Source: Patescibacteria group bacterium (GTDB taxonomy: Bacteria > Patescibacteriota > Patescibacteriia > Patescibacteriales > JBAZCA01). From it: a stretch of DNA of 64,000 nucleotides. Below, one piece after another: positions 25,619-31,819 of the stretch (its first letter is position 1; each line of letters opens with the position of its first letter). The position numbers and the translations under genes were made by a program. The notes below the pieces were generated by a model. That model saw only the letters and a list, made by a program, of their open reading frames with translations, was not told where the DNA came from and searched no databases. The DNA is taken from the NCBI GenBank assembly GCA_041661405.1, contig JBAZUL010000002.1, forward strand, positions 3,715-67,714. The letters are read 5' to 3'.

Positions 25619-25693
25619 TCCCGGGTAGCGCAGCGGTAGCGCAGCTCGCTGTTAACGAGTTGGTCGTCGGTTCGAATCCGACCCCGGGAGCCA
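25619..25693 (+). tRNA. tRNA-Asn (anticodon GUU)
   Basis: Manual fold: acceptor UCCCGGG/CCCGGGA. D-arm GCGC-AGCGGUA-GCGC. Anticodon arm GCUCG-CUGUUAA-CGAGU. T-arm GUCGG-UUCGAAU-CCGAC. Discriminator G, then an encoded CCA. Confidence 0.9.
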
Positions 25694-25781: not shown

Positions 25782-26141
25782 TTGACTAACATGCAATCAA
25801 GCGAATTGGCGGATAGGGTCTATTCAATTTTGAAAGAACGAGCCTTAATAAATCAGCCAATTTTTTATGGTGAATTATATAAAATGGTTGGGCTTGATCA
25901 CGGTAAAGTGGTTGATAGGAGTAAGGGTAGTGAGTTGCTAGAATCCGCAAATATTATAAGTGGTGAGGATTATATGATTTCCTCTTTTGCGGTAAGTAAG
26001 GAAGCAAATGGCCCTTACCACGGATTTTATGTTTTAGCCGAAAAATGGGGCAGAATTAAGCACGGATTAACCGAGCAGGAGAAAATGGTTTTTTGGGTGG
26101 AAGAAATGAAGAGAGTCCATAAAAAATGTAATAAGCTATAG
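25782..26141 (+). CDS. Hypothetical protein (first gene of the low-GC island)
   Basis: ORF with AT-rich codon usage that differs from the upstream genes. No motifs recognised. Confidence 0.3.
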   Translation: MTNMQSSELADRVYSILKERALINQPIFYGELYKMVGLDHGKVVDRSKGSELLESANIISGEDYMISSFAVSKEANGPYHGFYVLAEKWGRIKHGLTEQEKMVFWVEEMKRVHKKCNKL

Positions 26142-26184: not shown

Positions 26185-26874
26185 ATGCATTTAGAAAGAT
26201 TTGATAGTTTTTTACAAACAGTGCCCTTAAAAGACTATAGGAAAAAATATAGTAGCATTAAAATTGTTGAGATGGATTTGCCTAAAGATATACAAGCAAT
26301 TAATCTTTTATATAAAGTCTATTGGGAGGAAAATAAATTTATTTCCTTTGAAAAATTTTATAAGAGATATTCAGAAGAAAAAAAGGAGTTACTCGAGAAA
26401 TTTAGAAAGAAAACAACAATGTGTAAAAATTGTTTCTATCGCGGAATAGAAGCAAGGACTTACAGGACCTGGGCTGGGTTAATAACCCAAATCCATGGCG
26501 GATATGTTGCCGAGTCTGTCTTTGGCAAAGGAACCGTAAGCATGTCAAGAGAATTAGACTCTTTGGGAGCCGATATAAGAGTTAAGTATAGAGACGATAT
26601 TTTAAATTATCAGGTTAAAAAAACGAGTTTTAGCGGAGTAATGAGCAGGGTTCCGCTTCCAAGAAAAAAGAAGACAGAAGGGGAAAATATTGACATAAAG
26701 TATGAAGTGCCTGCTTGTTTATCTGACCCAAAAACAAAAAAGGGAGAATTTAGAATACCATATTTGAGATTTTTAGAAGACAAGCGAATAAAGGCATTTA
26801 GCAACGGTTTTGTAGTTTTTACTCCTTACATTTTTGTAAGCAAAAAGAAAGAAATAGACAAAAGTTTAAAATAA
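26185..26874 (+). CDS. Hypothetical protein, candidate PD-(D/E)xK-type nuclease partner of the methyltransferase
   Basis: Possible D...(E/Q)xK arrangement (LGADIRVKYRDDILNYQVKK). Convergent with, and overlapping by 9 bp, the LexA-MTase gene. Weak. Confidence 0.25.
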   Translation: MHLERFDSFLQTVPLKDYRKKYSSIKIVEMDLPKDIQAINLLYKVYWEENKFISFEKFYKRYSEEKKELLEKFRKKTTMCKNCFYRGIEARTYRTWAGLITQIHGGYVAESVFGKGTVSMSRELDSLGADIRVKYRDDILNYQVKKTSFSGVMSRVPLPRKKKTEGENIDIKYEVPACLSDPKTKKGEFRIPYLRFLEDKRIKAFSNGFVVFTPYIFVSKKKEIDKSLK

Positions 26875-28398
26875 TTTTGGAATATATTTTGTATTATTTA
26901 GTATATGGTTAGCGATTTTAATATATTCAGGATTTATCTCAAAACCAATAAAAGATTGTCCTAATTCTTTCGCGGCAATACATTCAGAACCAGAACCAAC
27001 AAATGGCACCAACACGATGCCATTTTTTTGTGGCATTGCGGATTGAATTAATTTTCGCGATAACTCCAGCGGTTTTTGGGTGGGATGCTTTATAATATTA
27101 TGATCCTGATGTTTTTTGAGTTCTTTTGGCGAATAAATATTATTACAATCTTTGCATAAAAAATATCTTTCAGACATTCCAGCTCCTCCGGCCAGAGCGG
27201 GAATTTTTAATACATCTCTAGGGAGCGCGCCGTTCTCATGAGCATTATAAACTGTTTCTTTTCCGCTACTGCTAAAACGACCGGCGGTAGCCGCTCTTAT
27301 TTTACCCGCGGCCCCATTTAAAAATCCTTCGGTGTATGGTTCTCTAACTTCATCTCTATTAAAAATTGGTTGTTGTTTCCAGGCGCAAATAATTGCCTCA
27401 TGGCTTCTTTGCCAAAAATTTAAAGAAGCGACATTTTTATTAGTATAATGCCAGATGAGCCATCTTTTCGGTAAAGAAATTTCTACTGATAGATAAGCCA
27501 AAATTTCGCTAAAGCCGTAAATAAATATTGTTCCGTTTGGCTTCATTACGCGAATACATTCATTTATCCATTCATTACACCAAGCGATATATTCTTTTAA
27601 TTCTCTTTTGTCGTGATTATTACCGAAATCTTTGCCTATGTTGTAGGGCGGATCAGCGACGACGACATCGCAACTTTCGTCAGGAAGTTTTTTTATTTCG
27701 TTTATAACATCGCCACAAATGATTTGATTTAATGGTAAATTTTTATATTGTATTGTTTGTTTTTTTTCTGTCTGTAATTCGGGCGTTACATTTTTAATGA
27801 CATCAATTACAATTCCTTGAATCATTAAATTTTCCGGTTTAACATATATCGGGCTTATTCTTAAATTCGCCGGCTGTAAACGAATCCTACCTTTTTCTTT
27901 ATAGATTTTTTTTAGCGTTGCTTCGCTATTATCAATTAACGCTACAATTTTTTGTCCGTTAACCGCCGTGGTTTGACTTTTAATTATTACGATGTCTCCA
28001 TCGTTAATGTTTTCTCCGATCATACTGCTACCGCTTACGCGCAAGGCAAAAAGATCGGCTGATTTTGGTAAGTTAATTTTAGGCACGGCGATTGTTTCTC
28101 TTTCTTCTATCGCTTCAATTGGTTGCCCAGCGGCTATTGTGCCTTTTAATGGAATTTGGATAAAGTCATCTATTGTTTTCTTAATTTCTATACCCCTTGA
28201 TGAGTTTTCATTTTTTATTAAATAATCTTTATTTATCAACGCTTCAACATGTTGATGCACCGTAGAAAGCGCGGAAAGTTTAAATCGTTTCTTTATTTCT
28301 TCGTAAGTAGGGGATATACCACTTTTTTTAATATATTCAGCAATGAAGTCTAAAATTTGTTTTTGCCTTTTAGTTAAAGTTTGCATAGTGTTTGACAT
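26866..28398 (-). CDS. Fusion protein: LexA-like S24 autopeptidase repressor (wHTH + Ala-Gly/Ser/Lys peptidase domain) fused to a beta-class N6-adenine/N4-cytosine DNA methyltransferase
   Basis: N-terminus TKRQKQILDFIAEYIKKSGISPTYEEIKKRF matches the LexA wHTH. Cleavage-site-like IAAGQP. RVSGSSMIGENINDGDIVII (Ser) and ATLKK (Lys) mark the S24 peptidase. Then motif IV VVADPPYNIG, followed by C-terminal HPTQKP and FVGSGSE (motif I). Motif IV before motif I indicates a beta-class amino-methyltransferase. Confidence 0.7.
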   Translation of the reverse strand: MSNTMQTLTKRQKQILDFIAEYIKKSGISPTYEEIKKRFKLSALSTVHQHVEALINKDYLIKNENSSRGIEIKKTIDDFIQIPLKGTIAAGQPIEAIEERETIAVPKINLPKSADLFALRVSGSSMIGENINDGDIVIIKSQTTAVNGQKIVALIDNSEATLKKIYKEKGRIRLQPANLRISPIYVKPENLMIQGIVIDVIKNVTPELQTEKKQTIQYKNLPLNQIICGDVINEIKKLPDESCDVVVADPPYNIGKDFGNNHDKRELKEYIAWCNEWINECIRVMKPNGTIFIYGFSEILAYLSVEISLPKRWLIWHYTNKNVASLNFWQRSHEAIICAWKQQPIFNRDEVREPYTEGFLNGAAGKIRAATAGRFSSSGKETVYNAHENGALPRDVLKIPALAGGAGMSERYFLCKDCNNIYSPKELKKHQDHNIIKHPTQKPLELSRKLIQSAMPQKNGIVLVPFVGSGSECIAAKELGQSFIGFEINPEYIKIANHILNNTKYIPKLF

Positions 28399-28470
28399 TA
28401 TTTATCCACATGTTATATTTATAGTATATACCGAAAATTTACCGAAGTCAAAAATATTTTATAATTAATT

Positions 28471-29988
28471 ATGGATAATTATTCATTATACAAACCGCTG
28501 AAAAATCATTTAGGAAAACTTAGCATAAATGAATCATTTTATGTGATATGGGCTTATTCAAACCATTTGCAATTTGGAAATTCATTTCCTTCTGATATCG
28601 AGACCATACCAGAATTTATTAATGCAAAATCTTTACCTGAAAAAAAGATCTATCAATGGGAATTAGAACTTTTATTACGAGAGATTATAATTAATTCTCA
28701 AGATATTGAAAGAGGATTAAAAACATTAAGAAAATGGAATTATTTTATAGGTGCTATAAACAAAATAAAGGATATTGAAAATAAATTGATTTCTGTCAAC
28801 AAGAATAATGTTTTAAAAGAATTTTTTAGGCTAGCCCATAGACAGTTTCCGTGGCAACTGAATATAAATCTCATGTACTTTTATAGATATTATAGAATTT
28901 TTAATGAAACGGACATTGATAAAATACTATATAACAAAGTCGGCATTCACTACGAGAATTTATTTTTAATGGGAACGTCGTTGCTTGGCCATTTTCAGAA
29001 AAATTTTATTATTAAAGAACCATTCAGCACGAATATAAAAGGTATAGCTAATAATGAGGTAAAAAAATTATTTGATATGATTTCAGTTGAACTAGATGAT
29101 TTTAAAAAAATTATACAAAAAGAGCATACTGTTGATGAAAAATTTGCCTATAATACTTACATATTGAGATTATATCCGATAATAAAAAATAAATTTAAAG
29201 GAGATAATACATATTTTTGTCCTTTGACCACTTTATTGTATTGGCGATTTACCAGCGGAATATATTATGAAATTTGCCGTGAAAAAGATTTTGATAATCC
29301 TTTCGGATATGCTTTTAAAAAATATGTTGGGGACGTTTTAAATAAAGCTAATAAGAAAATGACTATTTACCCCGAAGAATATTATGGTTCAAAGAAAAAT
29401 AAAAAGAATACGGTTGATTGGATATTAGATGAAAAAGACGCCGCCCTATTTATTGAATGTAAGACAAAAAGGTTAATAGTACCGGCAAAAATAGAATTAA
29501 ATAATACAGAATTTTTAGATAAAGAACTAGAAAAAATTTCTGATGCAATAGCTCAGGTTTATAAAACCATAAAAGATCATATTGATAAACAATACCCAAG
29601 TTTTTCGTATGACGAAAAAAGGAAAATTTATCCAATTATTTTGACATTAGAGGAGTGGTATTCATTTCCTGACCCAATTAGTCAAGAAATAAATAAAAAA
29701 GTTAAAGAAAAATTTAATCAAAATGGACTGCCTCTTAAATGGTTGGAAGAAATGCCTTATTCTATATGTGGTATTCATGAATTTGAGGAAATTGTTCAAA
29801 TAATACAAACCGTGGGCATTAAAAAATTTATGGAAAGTAAGTTTTCAACCCCTGAATATGCAAGTTGGGATTTAGGCCCCTTCGTAAATTCTTTTTATAA
29901 AGAAGAAAGAAAAAGCGCGATATTTTTATTCCAAAAAGAGTTTGATGATATGTTAAGCGCAAGAGGTTGCCCGGTCATCAATCATTGA
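28471..29988 (+). CDS. Hypothetical 505-aa protein with a PD-(D/E)xK-like motif, candidate restriction endonuclease or other nuclease
   Basis: VDWILDEKDAALFIECKTKR contains a D...ExK arrangement typical of the PD-(D/E)xK core. Divergently transcribed from the LexA-MTase gene. Confidence 0.3.
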   Translation: MDNYSLYKPLKNHLGKLSINESFYVIWAYSNHLQFGNSFPSDIETIPEFINAKSLPEKKIYQWELELLLREIIINSQDIERGLKTLRKWNYFIGAINKIKDIENKLISVNKNNVLKEFFRLAHRQFPWQLNINLMYFYRYYRIFNETDIDKILYNKVGIHYENLFLMGTSLLGHFQKNFIIKEPFSTNIKGIANNEVKKLFDMISVELDDFKKIIQKEHTVDEKFAYNTYILRLYPIIKNKFKGDNTYFCPLTTLLYWRFTSGIYYEICREKDFDNPFGYAFKKYVGDVLNKANKKMTIYPEEYYGSKKNKKNTVDWILDEKDAALFIECKTKRLIVPAKIELNNTEFLDKELEKISDAIAQVYKTIKDHIDKQYPSFSYDEKRKIYPIILTLEEWYSFPDPISQEINKKVKEKFNQNGLPLKWLEEMPYSICGIHEFEEIVQIIQTVGIKKFMESKFSTPEYASWDLGPFVNSFYKEERKSAIFLFQKEFDDMLSARGCPVINH

Positions 29989-30321: not shown

Positions 30322-31317
30322 ATGAAAGAAATATTAGATAATCCCTTGGAGCAATACCAAGAAATAGAATCTAAGACTGCTAAAAATGAAAATAAAAAAG
30401 AAAAGTGGACAGCAAAAATACGGAAAGCGTTGAGTATTTTTATTGCTACCGGCTTAGTTACTCTTTCCGCCGATCCGGTTCTTGACTCAAAAATTTATTT
30501 TAATGAAAACCATATAGGTAAATTTATTGAATATACGGGAGAAGATAATGAAATCAAGCAGCTGGAAATGGAATATAGGCTTAAGGAGTTGTGCGAAAAA
30601 TATTCAGTTAACATTGTAGGCTTTCTTAAAACGGCGGATGAAGGAGCAAGAGAAAATCGGGAAAAAGAAAAAGGGCCGTTAAAAGTAGAAGGATTTGAAT
30701 CTTTGGGCATTTTTAATGAAGATCTAAAAGAAATGTGGGATGAGACATATCCAAAGAACGCTTTAAATGAAGTTTCCAGAGTTGCTTATATATCCAAGTC
30801 TAAGCAGAATGTAGGGGATTATAATATATCAGGACAGATGATGGCGGCTGGAACGAATATATTAAGCAATGAAATAACATTTTTCAAAAGTTTAGAGGGC
30901 CACTCAAAAAAGAAAGACATAATAGGGACTGCGGATTGGTTTTTTAGTCATGAGCTTGGTCATATGAATGATTGGGCCCATACTGACAATTTAACGCCAG
31001 AGGAAAGAATAGAGTTTTTGCAGGAGGTAACACAATCATTTCTTATGGAAGGGTCGTTTAGAGATGTGTTAGGATATGTAGATTCGATAAATAATCCAGA
31101 CCAGCAGAAACAATTATTTTACAAAGTTGGAGAGTATTGGGCGGGTTTATGTGAATATTATTTTACTTTCCCCGATATTCAATTCAATAGCTTGGAGACG
31201 GCTTTAATTGAAAAATGGTTATTGAAGGGTGAAAAGTTTGATAACTTGGCAATGAAAGAAAAAAGAGTGGGCTATGTAAAAAAAATGCTTGAAACTAACT
31301 ATTATGATAAAAAATAG
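30322..31317 (+). CDS. Putative zinc metallopeptidase-like protein (HExxH)
   Basis: One TM segment near the N-terminus and an HELGH motif (FFSHELGHMNDWAHT). No further family assignment. Confidence 0.35.
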   Translation: MKEILDNPLEQYQEIESKTAKNENKKEKWTAKIRKALSIFIATGLVTLSADPVLDSKIYFNENHIGKFIEYTGEDNEIKQLEMEYRLKELCEKYSVNIVGFLKTADEGARENREKEKGPLKVEGFESLGIFNEDLKEMWDETYPKNALNEVSRVAYISKSKQNVGDYNISGQMMAAGTNILSNEITFFKSLEGHSKKKDIIGTADWFFSHELGHMNDWAHTDNLTPEERIEFLQEVTQSFLMEGSFRDVLGYVDSINNPDQQKQLFYKVGEYWAGLCEYYFTFPDIQFNSLETALIEKWLLKGEKFDNLAMKEKRVGYVKKMLETNYYDKK

Positions 31318-31819
31318 TAAGCTTTTTAGTTTTTTGTTGATTTTACCGTTGTTTATTTTAATCCTTGGCGGTTGCGGCAAAAGCGCTTCGGAGATAGCGG
31401 GCGAAAAAGCGGCTGAAAAAAATATAGAAAACCAAACGGGAGGCCAAGCTAATGTTGACATAAATAACGGCAGTATAAAAATTGAAGGTAGTCTGGGTAA
31501 GATTGAATCCGGCGATAATGTAAAATTGCCGGCATATTTCCCCGACGATGTTTATGTCATTGAGGGTAAAATAATTACTGCATTTTCCAACCAGGCTGAT
31601 AAAAGCATTACGCTTTCTATTGACTCCACCGCGAGCATAAAAGAAGCGTTTACTATATATCAAGAAAAATTAAAAGCCACCGGCTGGCTGATTACCGGAA
31701 TAATGAATTACGGCGATTCCGCGAATGTGATAGCCGAAAAAGATAAGCGCACAGCTTCAATATTTATGAATAAGAGTGGAGATAAAATAAGCGTAGTTCT
31801 TGTTATAGCGGAGAAATAA
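31289..31819 (+). CDS. Lipoprotein of unknown function
   Basis: Signal peptide with lipobox ILGGCGKS. 176 aa. Confidence 0.4.
   Translation: MKLTIMIKNSKLFSFLLILPLFILILGGCGKSASEIAGEKAAEKNIENQTGGQANVDINNGSIKIEGSLGKIESGDNVKLPAYFPDDVYVIEGKIITAFSNQADKSITLSIDSTASIKEAFTIYQEKLKATGWLITGIMNYGDSANVIAEKDKRTASIFMNKSGDKISVVLVIAEK

What the first reader, a model, noticed from the sequence alone, without database searches (positions are those of the whole stretch)
26185..29988. Complete LexA-type autopeptidase repressor fused to a DNA methyltransferase, flanked by PD-(D/E)xK candidates
**LexA half.** The 510-aa minus-strand protein begins with a full LexA-like module. It has the wHTH, an Ala-Gly cleavage site (IAAGQP), the nucleophile Ser (GSSM) and the Lys (TLKK).

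**Methyltransferase half.** It then continues without a break into a beta-class N6A/N4C DNA methyltransferase: DPPY motif IV, followed by C-terminal TQKP and FxGxGS.

**Neighbours.** The divergent partner is a 505-aa protein with a D...ExK nuclease-like motif. A 229-aa gene overlaps the MTase 3' end convergently.

R-M systems normally use small C-proteins or an N-terminal HTH on the MTase for control. A self-cleaving LexA/CI-type domain on the methyltransferase suggests SOS- or RecA*-responsive switching of methylation versus restriction. This could act as a damage-triggered suicide or abortive defence, or as a phage/ICE-style regulator. I do not recognise this architecture as a described system.
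Basis: partly seen in the sequence, partly recalled or inferred. Interest (0 to 1): 0.8.

Follow-up and report, generated by a model that had tools for sequence, protein, structure and literature searches.

The report
Self-cleaving LexA repressor fused to restriction-modification methyltransferase
A candidate-phyla (Patescibacteria) bacterium carries a TaqI-type restriction-modification system whose protective methyltransferase is fused to a complete, apparently cleavable LexA repressor that sits on its own promoter; this undescribed design recurs with unrelated methyltransferase classes and probably links DNA-damage sensing to control of restriction and neighbouring defence genes.

Summary
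Window 26866-28398(-) encodes LexA DNA-binding domain + S24 autopeptidase + beta-class N6_N4 DNA methyltransferase. It is not an artefact: there are at least 523 relatives in metagenomes plus an independent assembly. The neighbours were misassigned. The 229-aa convergent gene is the cognate TaqI-family restriction enzyme, conserved beside the fusion in 79 of 84 loci. TCGA is the most depleted palindromic tetramer in the host DNA (obs/exp 0.12). The 505-aa divergent gene is a distant GapS1-like defence protein occupying a variable cargo slot; it is not a system component. New findings: (1) complete LexA modules are fused to beta, gamma, Dam-like and C5 methyltransferases, with cleavage-site Gly, Ser and Lys kept in all 85 modules examined; (2) the fusion's promoter carries an 11-bp-period direct repeat between -35 and -10 that covaries with the LexA recognition helix; (3) this promoter overlaps a stronger divergent promoter facing assorted defence genes. 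Best explanation: an autorepressing regulatory methyltransferase whose repressor is removed by RecA-stimulated self-cleavage. Cleavage and its physiological outcome are inferred, not shown. No published description was found.

The parts
26866..28398 (-). LexA-MTase fusion gene (longest ORF 510 aa; probable true start is the ATG at 28386, giving 506 aa). LexA wHTH aa 5-69 (nt 28386-28192); Ala90-Gly91 cleavage site (nt 28131-28126); S24 domain aa 84-198 (nt 28149-27805) with Ser125 and Lys163; disordered linker aa 204-214; beta-class N6_N4 MTase aa ~223-510 (nt 27732-26869).
   Evidence: Pfam and NCBIfam; PDB sequence matches to LexA and beta-class MTases; invariant residues in 29 homologues; AF2 model with pLDDT 70 and low-confidence linker 204-214; start codon.
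26185..26874 (+). Cognate restriction endonuclease, TaqI family, 229 aa. Convergent with the MTase gene and overlapping its 3' end by 9 nt (26866-26874).
   Evidence: PF09573 RE_TaqI E=2.6e-29; PADLOC REase_II; convergent and abutting the fusion in 79 of 84 full-length fusion loci; TCGA obs/exp 0.12 in host DNA.
28429..28446 (-). Predicted LexA operator: direct repeat TTCGGTA-N4-TTCGGTA (11-bp period) filling the spacer of promoter P1.
   Evidence: Only exact copy in the 64-kb window. The repeat sequence covaries with the recognition helix across 71 unique loci. It has the same geometry as the alphaproteobacterial LexA box GTTC-N7-GTTC (PMC4951493).
28423..28451 (-). Promoter P1 of the fusion gene: TTGACT-17-TATACT.
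   Evidence: Consensus scan 10/12; an equivalent promoter scores at least 9/12 in 64 of 71 unique loci.
28392..28419 (+). Divergent promoter P2: TTGACA-16-TATATT with TG-extended -10. Its -35 is the conserved 'GTCAA' element next to the fusion's start codon, and it points at the cargo gene.
   Evidence: Best-scoring promoter in the region, 11/12. It scores at least 10/12 in 50 of 71 unique loci against 3 of 71 shuffled controls.
28402..28410 (-). TGTGGATAA box (reverse complement of the DnaA-box consensus TTATCCACA). It is a conserved cassette element of unknown role.
   Evidence: Only exact copy in the window; present in 62 of 71 unique cassettes; 59 of 75 exact copies in 676 kb of loci lie in the cassette.
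28438..28465 (+). Additional promoter-like site P3 (TTTACC-16-TATAAT) directly upstream of the cargo gene. Its -35 lies inside the operator.
   Evidence: Consensus scan 10/12; consensus match only.
28471..29988 (+). Variable cargo gene of this locus: a distant GapS1-like protein with a PD-(D/E)xK-type motif (D316...E329-x-K331), 505 aa. It is not a conserved partner of the fusion.
   Evidence: NF047931 GapS1 E=2e-25, 89.6 bits, below the cutoff of 320; no Pfam or PADLOC hit; a relative found only in L053/L054 at 22% identity; GAPS1 biology from bioRxiv 10.1101/2023.03.28.534373.
25619..25693 (+). tRNA-Asn at the left edge of the low-GC island (~25.7-31.9 kb) that carries the system; probable island insertion site.
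   Evidence: ARAGORN finds it as the only tRNA in the window; GC 0.29-0.35 against ~0.45; roughly 10 related loci also abut tRNA genes.
25782..26141 (+). 119-aa ORF upstream of the REase, in the position where about 40 of 65 related loci carry an XRE-type C (controller) protein. It is unrelated to those proteins and has no family hit.
   Evidence: No Pfam, NCBIfam or PADLOC hit; absent from all other loci; C-protein genes in relatives.

Best explanation
This is a Type II restriction-modification system of probable TCGA specificity (TaqI-family REase plus beta-class, probably N6-adenine, MTase). Its MTase is a 'regulatory methyltransferase' whose N-terminal repressor module is a complete LexA. 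Proposed mechanism: the fusion dimerises through its S24 domain and its two winged-helix domains bind the direct repeat TTCGGTA-N4-TTCGGTA in the spacer of its own promoter P1, so MTase synthesis is autorepressed. The operator abuts the -10 regions of the overlapping divergent promoter P2 (and P3), so the same binding should also hold down the divergent cargo gene, here a GapS1-like defence protein. When RecA-ssDNA filaments form, the S24 domain cleaves Ala90-Gly91 and releases the DNA-binding domain. Such filaments could arise from DNA damage, including breaks made by the system's own REase or by restriction of invading DNA. P1 and P2 are then derepressed, giving more MTase (a Type II analogue of restriction alleviation) and expression of the cargo defence gene. 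Status of each step: domain content, conservation of catalytic residues, R-M pairing, promoter/operator anatomy and operator-helix covariation are shown. DNA binding at the repeats is strongly inferred. RecA-dependent cleavage, the fate of the S24-MTase fragment and the physiological outcome are inferred.
For: Domains and catalytic motifs. All key residues are invariant in 29 fusions. The cleavage-site Gly, GxSM and T(L/V/I)K are kept in all 85 LexA modules examined, 45 of them fused, and the residue before the Gly is Ala in 81 of 85. The fusion is real and common: 120 listed full-length homologues, at least 523 relatives in metagenomes, and an identical independent Logan assembly. The REase partner is conserved in 79 of 84 loci, and TCGA is depleted to 0.12 of expectation in host DNA and 0.49 in pooled loci, the lowest palindromic 4-mer in both. 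Promoter and operator. Helix-operator association: HFH/HFY with TTCTAY in 51 of 56, HQH with TTCGGT in 6 of 6, HEH with MTCGGG in 3 of 3, no cross-class cases. Both repeat copies change together. The same cassette occurs in C5, gamma, D12 and other beta fusions. The operator is single-copy in the window and in 37 of 39 loci. A bona fide LexA binds an 11-bp-period direct repeat in Alphaproteobacteria, and helix alpha-3 residues set LexA specificity (PMC4951493). Regulatory MTases with an operator between overlapping promoters are an established class (PMC12707154). Cargo genes are defence-related. An unfused 60%-identical MTase works with a TaqI-like REase elsewhere, so the MTase domain is autonomous. 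The linker between S24 and MTase is predicted to be disordered.
Against: There is no experimental evidence for cleavage, DNA binding, methylation specificity or promoter activity. The helix-operator association could partly reflect co-inheritance of a linked DBD and operator, with only about 4-6 independent classes. The one-residue rule breaks outside the family: L093 has helix HEH but TTTCGGT repeats. RecA was not found in the 64-kb window and the rest of the genome was not available. P2's control by the fusion is inferred from geometry only. The window lacks the C-protein found in most relatives, so REase control here is unknown. The conserved TGTGGATAA box is not explained by this model.
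Confidence: 0.6

Rival explanations
1. Damage-triggered suicide or abortive defence. Cleavage destabilises or inactivates the MTase part, for example through degrons exposed on LexA fragments. Methylation then lapses, and the stable REase kills the damaged or infected cell.
For: The same invariant cleavage machinery. The new C-terminus after cleavage would be ...IAA, resembling the E. coli LexA ...VAA ClpXP signal (from memory, not tested). R-M systems are known to kill post-segregationally (PMC12707154). The neighbouring cargo genes are often abortive-infection-type effectors.
Against: Cleavage removes the repressor domain, which by itself predicts more transcription of the fusion gene. The MTase domain is joined by a disordered linker and is autonomous in unfused relatives. 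Killing the host at every DNA-damage episode would be costly for small-genome symbionts. No data address fragment stability.
Confidence: 0.15
2. The LexA module serves only as a dimeric autorepressor (a C-protein or SsoII-like homeostat for establishment in new hosts). Self-cleavage is not used physiologically, or it is RecA-independent slow turnover.
For: Autorepression explains the operator position without any need for cleavage. Known regulatory MTases work this way. RecA dependence is untested.
Against: The cleavage-site Gly, the Ser nucleophile and the Lys base are kept in 85 of 85 modules (Ala before the Gly in 81), across at least 45 clusters at 50% identity and four MTase classes, while the DBD has diverged to 54% mean identity. 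Unused catalytic residues would be expected to decay.
Confidence: 0.15
3. The fusion is the organism's genuine SOS master regulator (its only LexA) that has picked up an MTase domain. The R-M linkage would be secondary.
For: It passes the LexA equivalog model. NCBI names it 'transcriptional repressor LexA'. No second S24 protein is present in the 64-kb window.
Against: It lies in a low-GC island next to a tRNA. Its operator occurs once in 64 kb and once per locus. Operator and helix differ between close relatives. The module is attached to four MTase classes, always beside REases. Standalone ~200-aa LexAs are among its closest relatives.
Confidence: 0.07
4. A prophage or ICE CI-type repressor module with a hitch-hiking MTase.
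For: S24 repressors are typical of temperate phages. LexA-like repressor genes flank defence cargo in Thermus prophages (PMC11437467).
Against: No integrase, structural or replication genes lie around the fusion in the window or in the loci inspected. None of the best 80 viral-contig relatives carries the LexA part. The fusion is absent from PLSDB plasmids.
Confidence: 0.03

Closest known systems
Regulatory (dual-function) methyltransferases: M.SsoII, M.Ecl18kI, M.EcoRII (PMC12707154)
   Same: A sequence-specific DNA-binding domain is fused to the N-terminus of an R-M methyltransferase through a flexible linker. The operator lies in the MTase's own promoter, within a pair of overlapping, mutually exclusive divergent promoters, and the MTase is autorepressed.
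   Different: Here the repressor is a complete LexA (wHTH plus S24 autopeptidase with cleavage site) instead of a small HTH. The divergent promoter faces a variable defence gene instead of the REase. The REase is convergent and, in most relatives, has its own C protein. The module is attached to beta, gamma, alpha (D12) and C5 MTases.
LexA, the SOS repressor (TIGR00498; E. coli, T. maritima and other structures)
   Same: Same domain order, 31-39% identity to canonical LexAs and E about 1e-32 to T. maritima LexA. Ala-Gly site, Ser-Lys dyad and their spacing are preserved. It autoregulates its own promoter. The direct-repeat operator has the 11-bp period of alphaproteobacterial GTTC-N7-GTTC.
   Different: It carries about 300 extra C-terminal residues forming a DNA MTase. 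It is encoded in a mobile low-GC island. The operator is single-copy and locus-specific, and specificity has diversified between close relatives. No evidence was found that it controls DNA-repair genes.
C-protein-controlled Type II R-M systems with convergent M and C-R units (e.g. Esp1396I; arrangement recalled from memory)
   Same: About 40 of 65 related loci have an XRE-type C gene directly upstream of the REase, convergent with the MTase gene.
   Different: The window copy has no C gene. MTase control is by its own fused LexA and not by C.
DNA-damage-responsive regulators of defence systems (CapH/CapP of CBASS, BrxR/WYL; recalled from memory) and restriction alleviation of Type I systems (PMC11109961 abstract)
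   Same: The concept of tuning immunity or self-protection when damaged or unmethylated DNA appears. A repressor is removed by proteolysis.
   Different: Those are separate regulator proteins, or ClpXP proteolysis of the restriction subunit. None is a LexA fused to the modification enzyme.
GAPS1 (Vibrio and E. coli single-protein PD-(D/E)xK antiphage system; bioRxiv 10.1101/2023.03.28.534373)
   Same: The 505-aa neighbour aligns over nearly the whole GapS1 profile (positions 61-429 of 455). It has D316/K331 where GAPS1 has the essential D313/K328.
   Different: The score is far below the family cutoff (89.6 against 320). It comes from a Patescibacteria host and is untested.

Membership tests
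LexA repressor (S24 autopeptidase repressor) | N-terminal LexA-type winged HTH | tested here: met
   PF01726 55.1 bits against cutoff 23.7; AF2 helices 10-26, 32-39 and 44-56 at pLDDT ~85.
LexA repressor (S24 autopeptidase repressor) | S24 domain with Ser nucleophile, Lys general base and Ala-Gly scissile bond at canonical spacing | tested here: met
   PF00717 95.5 bits. A90-G91, S125 and K163 are invariant in 29 of 29 fusions. Gly, Ser and Lys are kept in 85 of 85 modules.
LexA repressor (S24 autopeptidase repressor) | Passes the curated equivalog model | tested here: met
   TIGR00498 172.1 bits against cutoff 110.95, aa 5-204.
LexA repressor (S24 autopeptidase repressor) | RecA*-stimulated self-cleavage | not testable with these tools
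   Needs biochemistry.
LexA repressor (S24 autopeptidase repressor) | Controls a regulon of DNA-repair genes through shared operators | tested here: inconclusive
   Only one operator copy in the 64-kb window and one per locus in 37 of 39 loci, but the full genomes were not available.
Type II restriction-modification system | DNA MTase with SAM-binding FxGxG and catalytic (D/S)PP(Y/F) motifs | tested here: met
   PF01555 141.6 bits; DPPY 249-252 followed by FVGSG 466-470, the beta-class order; PADLOC MTase_II E=3.5e-52.
Type II restriction-modification system | Adjacent cognate restriction endonuclease, co-conserved with the MTase | tested here: met
   PF09573 RE_TaqI 102.7 bits against cutoff 26.1; adjacent in 79 of 84 loci; also paired with the unfused MTase relative.
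Type II restriction-modification system | Defined recognition sequence that is methylated and cleaved | tested here: inconclusive
   Indirect only: TCGA is the most depleted palindromic 4-mer (0.12 in the window host DNA, 0.49 in pooled loci), and the REase belongs to the TaqI family. There is no methylome or enzyme assay.
Regulatory MTases (SsoII/Ecl18kI/EcoRII type) | N-terminal DNA-binding domain fused to the MTase, with its operator in the MTase promoter | tested here: met
   Architecture. The direct repeat lies in the P1 spacer and covaries with the recognition helix. Binding itself is not shown.
Regulatory MTases (SsoII/Ecl18kI/EcoRII type) | Divergent overlapping promoter drives the REase gene, so MTase binding switches M to R | tested here: not met
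   The REase is convergent downstream. The divergent gene is variable cargo.
Regulatory MTases (SsoII/Ecl18kI/EcoRII type) | Homology of the DNA-binding domain to the small HTH of SsoII-type MTases | tested here: not met
   The domain is LexA_DNA_bind plus S24.
C-protein-controlled R-M | XRE-type controller gene directly upstream of, and co-oriented with, the REase gene | tested here: not met
   The window has an unrelated 119-aa ORF. About 40 of 65 relatives do have the C gene.
GapS1 antiphage family (for the 505-aa neighbour) | Score above the NCBIfam NF047931 cutoff | tested here: not met
   89.6 bits against cutoff 320, although E=2e-25 over profile positions 61-429 of 455.
GapS1 antiphage family (for the 505-aa neighbour) | C-terminal PD-(D/E)xK active site (D313 and K328 in GAPS1) | tested here: inconclusive
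   The motif D316...E329-C-K331 is present at an equivalent position (paper). The fold was not modelled.

The most novel reading that the evidence does not exclude
The LexA-MTase cassette may be a portable, damage-sensing control hub for defence islands in Patescibacteria. One cleavable repressor, built into the modification enzyme, would sit on a symmetric bidirectional promoter. When RecA filaments form, for example after the REase cuts invading or self DNA, it would simultaneously boost self-protective methylation and switch on whichever second-line defence gene occupies the adjacent cargo slot (GapS1-like, CBASS cyclase, TIR, GIY-YIG, Schlafen-like and others). Diversification of the recognition helix and operator would then insulate co-resident cassettes from each other and from the SOS regulon. 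The conserved DnaA-box-like 9-mer at the cassette edge would add replication coupling or act as the cargo-exchange junction.
Probability: 0.3. Interest if true: 0.85.

Novelty: new variant of a known kind. Interest (0 to 1): 0.74.

Why it matters
If correct, this would be the first case of an R-M system wired directly to the RecA/LexA damage signal through its own methyltransferase. That is a Type II counterpart of restriction alleviation and a possible route by which first-line restriction alerts second-line defences.

It is common in Patescibacteria, which largely lack CRISPR and are thought to rely on R-M (general knowledge, not tested here). It therefore bears on how these minimal cells avoid autoimmunity.

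It also has practical consequences:
- These proteins are annotated as 'transcriptional repressor LexA' by NCBI, or as plain methyltransferases by JGI. Either label can mislead SOS-regulon reconstructions and defence-system censuses.
- The helix/operator classes form a natural set of possibly orthogonal, cleavable repressor-operator pairs that can be tested directly in E. coli.

Tried and rejected
The alignment-based metagenome scan replaced it.
- The PDB sequence search for the REase found nothing, so its fold stays untested.
- The key Patescibacteria SOS paper (Sanchez-Osuna 2017, PMID 28618189) is not held. I therefore could not compare the operators with the published Patescibacteria LexA motif.
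- My recollection that Verrucomicrobia LexA binds a direct repeat was wrong; the motif is palindromic. The correct precedent is alphaproteobacterial GTTC-N7-GTTC.
- A strict one-residue recognition code is rejected: L093 has helix HEH but TTTCGGT repeats.
- The idea that TGTGGATAA is a general promoter element or the LexA operator is rejected. It has one exact copy in 64 kb and stays invariant across operator classes.
- The idea that GTCAA before the ATG is a ribosome-binding signal was replaced by its identification as the -35 of divergent promoter P2.
- The idea that the 505-aa, 119-aa or 331-aa neighbours are conserved components is rejected.
- Assembly or frameshift artefact is rejected.
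- Phage or plasmid carriage of the fusion was not found.
- No fold search was run on the AF2 model, because the sequence-level domain assignments were already unambiguous.

Full report

Yes. The minus-strand ORF at 26866-28398 encodes 510 aa. Pfam finds three domains, all far above their cutoffs:
- LexA_DNA_bind, aa 5-69
- Peptidase_S24, aa 84-198
- N6_N4_Mtase, aa 244-497

NCBIfam's LexA equivalog model TIGR00498 scores 172 bits against a cutoff of 111 over aa 5-204. The two halves match solved LexA structures (T. maritima 3k2z, E=1.4e-32; E. coli 1jhh and others) and beta-class MTases (9c3u, M.MboIIA, M.RsrI, CcrM).

In an alignment of 29 fusion homologues, A90-G91, S125, K163, D249-P-P-Y252, T440-Q-K-P and F466-V-G-x-G are all invariant. 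The spacings from the cleavage site to the serine (35 aa) and from the serine to the lysine (38 aa) match E. coli LexA (A84/S119/K156, from memory).

An AlphaFold2 model (pLDDT 70) gives confident DBD, S24 and MTase cores joined by a low-confidence linker at aa 204-214. The family N-terminus (M-[LI]-T-K-[RK]-Q-K) and NCBI's own gene call favour the ATG at 28386, giving 506 aa.

**2. Is the fusion an artefact?**

No.
- A search of 5.8 billion proteins listed 120 full-length (~505-510 aa) homologues with the same three Pfam domains. Nearly all are 64-70% identical, and every source name that gives a taxon places them in Patescibacteria lineages (Falkowbacteria, Nealsonbacteria, Gribaldobacteria, Parcubacteria, Minisyncoccales).
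- A metagenome scan confirmed at least 523 relatives. All 80 loci fetched were full-length fusions.
- The window's own island was assembled independently in a Logan run, with identical gene order.
- The window belongs to a 105,926-bp contig of a 'Patescibacteria group bacterium' MAG. There NCBI names the protein 'transcriptional repressor LexA' and JGI names it 'site-specific DNA-methyltransferase'.

**3. What are the neighbours?**

*The 229-aa convergent gene (26185-26874).* This is a TaqI-family restriction endonuclease (PF09573, E=2.6e-29; PADLOC REase_II). It overlaps the MTase stop region by 9 nt. Across 84 full-length fusion loci, a homologue lies convergent and abutting in 79. One of the five exceptions is a contig end.

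TCGA, the TaqI site, is by far the most depleted palindromic tetramer in the non-island part of the window (obs/exp 0.12; the next lowest is CTAG at 0.59). It is also the most depleted across 676 kb of pooled related loci (0.49). This is indirect but strong support for TCGA specificity and for long exposure of these genomes to it.

An unfused MTase that is 60% identical sits in tandem with a TaqI-family REase elsewhere. The LexA module is therefore an add-on to an otherwise ordinary R-M pair.

*The 505-aa divergent gene (28471-29988).* This is not a conserved partner. A relative appears in only two loci, at 22% identity. It matches NCBIfam's GapS1 antiphage family over almost the whole profile, but far below the cutoff (89.6 against 320 bits). 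It has D316...E329-x-K331, where GAPS1 has the essential D313 and K328 of its PD-(D/E)xK site. GAPS1 is an experimentally shown single-protein defence triggered by phage capsid protein (bioRxiv 10.1101/2023.03.28.534373).

*Other neighbours.* The 119-aa and 331-aa ORFs are unique to this locus.

*The island.* It spans about 25.7-31.9 kb, has GC of 0.29-0.35 against about 0.45 elsewhere, and begins right after the only tRNA in the window (tRNA-Asn, 25619-25693).

**4. The fusion is one member of a multi-class family.**

An exhaustive search of 1.84 billion cluster representatives returned many 430-890 aa proteins that share only the LexA part, at 45-60% identity. Ten were scanned, and all ten are LexA_DNA_bind + Peptidase_S24 fused to a DNA methyltransferase of some class:
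- gamma N6_Mtase/Eco57I, with or without TaqI_C
- alpha D12 (Dam-like)
- C5 cytosine
- other beta N6_N4 enzymes

Among the best 150 representatives, 45 clusters at 50% identity carry at least 150 residues after the LexA module. All 85 LexA modules examined (fused or not) keep the cleavage-site Gly, G-x-S-M and T-(L/V/I)-K. The residue before the Gly is Ala in 81 of 85.

One of these other fusions is convergent and overlapping with an MwoI-family REase. Another has a convergent 302-aa partner inside an AbiE/HicA/NYN island.

In viral contigs only the unfused MTase is found: 279 relatives, and none of the best 80 carries the LexA part. No plasmid in PLSDB carries the fusion.

**5. The promoter cassette.**

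Aligning the 150 nt upstream of 71 unique fusion genes shows a conserved cassette. In the window it consists of:
- **P1** on the minus strand, TTGACT-17-TATACT (28451 to 28423).
- **Direct repeat** TTCGGTA-N4-TTCGGTA (28429-28446), filling the P1 spacer.
- **P2** on the plus strand, TTGACA-16-TATATT with a TG extension (28392-28419). This is the best promoter match in the region. Its -35 is the conserved 'GTCAA' next to the fusion's start codon.
- **TTATCCACA** (28402-28410) inside the P2 spacer.

Across loci, P2 scores at least 10 of 12 in 50 of 71, against 3 of 71 shuffled controls. In the main class, P1 and P2 share a palindromic ATTATAAT -10, so the promoter is symmetric and bidirectional.

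The repeat occurs once in the 64-kb window and once per locus in 37 of 39 loci. It is therefore a private operator and not an SOS box shared with repair genes, as far as the available sequence shows.

**6. Evidence that the LexA domain binds the repeat.**

Both copies of the repeat change together between loci, and the change tracks the recognition helix. Among the TaqI-type fusions:
- helix ...H-F-H/Y... goes with TTCTAY repeats in 51 of 56 loci (none detected in the other 5)
- ...H-Q-H... goes with TTCGGT in 6 of 6, including the window
- ...H-E-H... goes with (C/A)TCGGG in 3 of 3
- there are no cross-class cases

The same pairing recurs in other MTase classes. HQH goes with TTCGGT in a C5 fusion and a gamma fusion, and HYH goes with TTCGA in gamma and D12 fusions.

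The variable residue aligns with E45 of E. coli LexA, a base-contacting position (from memory). The literature states that LexA motif changes are determined mainly by helix alpha-3 residues, and that bona fide LexA in Alphaproteobacteria binds a direct repeat, GTTC-N7-GTTC, with the same 11-bp period (PMC4951493). L004's operator is literally GTTC-N7-GTTC.

Two caveats apply. The classes are few and the DBD and operator are linked, so co-inheritance contributes to the association. One outside-family case (L093, HEH with TTTCGGT) shows that more than one residue matters.

Within the family, mean pairwise identity is 54% for the DBD, 71% for S24 and 82% for the MTase. The DNA-binding domain diverges fastest.

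**7. The divergent side is a cargo slot.**

In 55 of 60 loci the nearest upstream gene is divergent. 40 of those 55 start 60-105 nt from the fusion's ATG. The proteins are unrelated to each other. Of 38 scanned:
- 9 have GIY-YIG domains
- 5 match PDC-S14
- 4 have DUF4209/PDC-S39
- 3 are CBASS-type cyclases (E=5e-105)
- 3 are trypsin-like proteases
- 3 have SEC-C motifs
- single cases have TIR/SEFIR, Schlafen-AlbA_2, DUF4145 and GNAT

The window's GapS1-like gene is this locus's occupant. Because the operator abuts the -10 regions of P1 and P2, and contains the -35 of a third promoter-like site just before the cargo ATG, a bound repressor should affect both directions. This is inferred from geometry only.

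**8. The REase side.**

About 40 of 65 unique relatives have an XRE-type C (controller) gene (...QSYISKIERGERR...) ending just before the REase start. Three more keep only a 3' remnant of it. About 10 abut a tRNA gene instead. The window has neither.

**9. Mechanism.**

The best-supported model is a regulatory methyltransferase in the sense of M.SsoII, M.Ecl18kI and M.EcoRII (PMC12707154). The difference is that the repressor module is a cleavable LexA.
- *Steady state:* the fusion autorepresses P1 and probably damps P2.
- *When RecA filaments form:* self-cleavage at A90-G91 releases the DBD, derepresses MTase synthesis and probably derepresses the cargo gene.

Strict conservation of the catalytic machinery across four MTase classes argues that cleavage is used.

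Whether the net outcome is protective or suicidal cannot be decided here. Protective would mean more methylation when repair or self-restriction creates unmethylated sites, a Type II analogue of restriction alleviation. I favour the protective reading because cleavage removes the repressor while leaving an autonomous MTase domain on a flexible linker.

**10. Novelty.**

Five full-text searches found no description of a LexA- or S24-fused methyltransferase. A 2025 review of R-M biology that covers regulatory MTases and C proteins does not contain the word LexA.

I class this as a new variant of a known kind. The known parts are the regulatory MTase and the LexA-type cleavable repressor. The combination, the multi-class distribution and the cargo-slot promoter architecture appear to be undescribed.

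**11. Unresolved.**
- The role of the TG(T/G)GGATAA box is unknown. It is identical to the DnaA-box consensus from general knowledge, is present in 62 of 71 cassettes, and lies at the outer edge next to the cargo start codon.
- The invariant C415/C418/H430/H433 pattern in the MTase is unexplained.
- It is not known whether the same genomes hold a separate canonical LexA and RecA.

Noticed in passing
window 28402-28410 (and 62 of 71 related cassettes): TGTGGATAA, the exact reverse complement of the canonical DnaA-box 9-mer TTATCCACA, is a conserved cassette element. The window holds only one exact copy. In most loci it lies at the outer edge of the cassette, 2-25 nt from the start codon of the variable cargo gene. 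It stays invariant while the LexA operator classes differ.
   Followed up: partly
window 26866-28398(-), aa 415-433 (nt ~27156-27100): There is an invariant Cys-x2-Cys...His-x2-His pattern (C415, C418, H430, H433) inside the MTase between motif IV and TQKP. It may be a zinc-binding element of the target-recognition region.
   Followed up: no
window 25619-25693: tRNA-Asn, the only tRNA in the window, lies exactly at the left border of the low-GC island (~25.7-31.9 kb). About 10 related loci also have a tRNA gene directly next to the REase gene.
   Followed up: partly
window 30322-31317 and 31289-31819: Two further island ORFs have no family hits. The 331-aa protein has an HELGH (HExxH metalloprotease-like) motif. 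The overlapping 176-aa protein has a lipobox-like LGGCG near its N-terminus.
   Followed up: no
window 1-25700 and 31900-64000: TCGA is depleted extremely in the host DNA (18 sites per strand against ~156 expected, ratio 0.12). CATG is over-represented (1.4).
   Followed up: partly
L001 10211-10456; about 40 of 65 related loci: An XRE-type controller (C) protein gene lies directly upstream of the TaqI-like REase in most relatives but is absent from the window. The window copy therefore has a different, unknown REase control.
   Followed up: partly
L097-L176 (IMG/VR): Unfused relatives of this MTase (48-58% identity) are frequent in viral contigs, including many giant-virus MAGs (GVMAG).
   Followed up: no
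window 26866-28398; NCBI MFA6106260.1: Public annotation is split: NCBI says 'transcriptional repressor LexA' and JGI says 'site-specific DNA-methyltransferase'. Such entries could contaminate LexA/SOS regulon surveys of Patescibacteria.
   Followed up: no
L093 3012-4539; L091 6859-9241: Other LexA-MTase fusions pair with different nucleases. One beta-class fusion is convergent with an MwoI_N REase followed by an Mrr_N protein. One gamma-class fusion is followed by a 302-aa unknown protein and AbiEii.
   Followed up: partly
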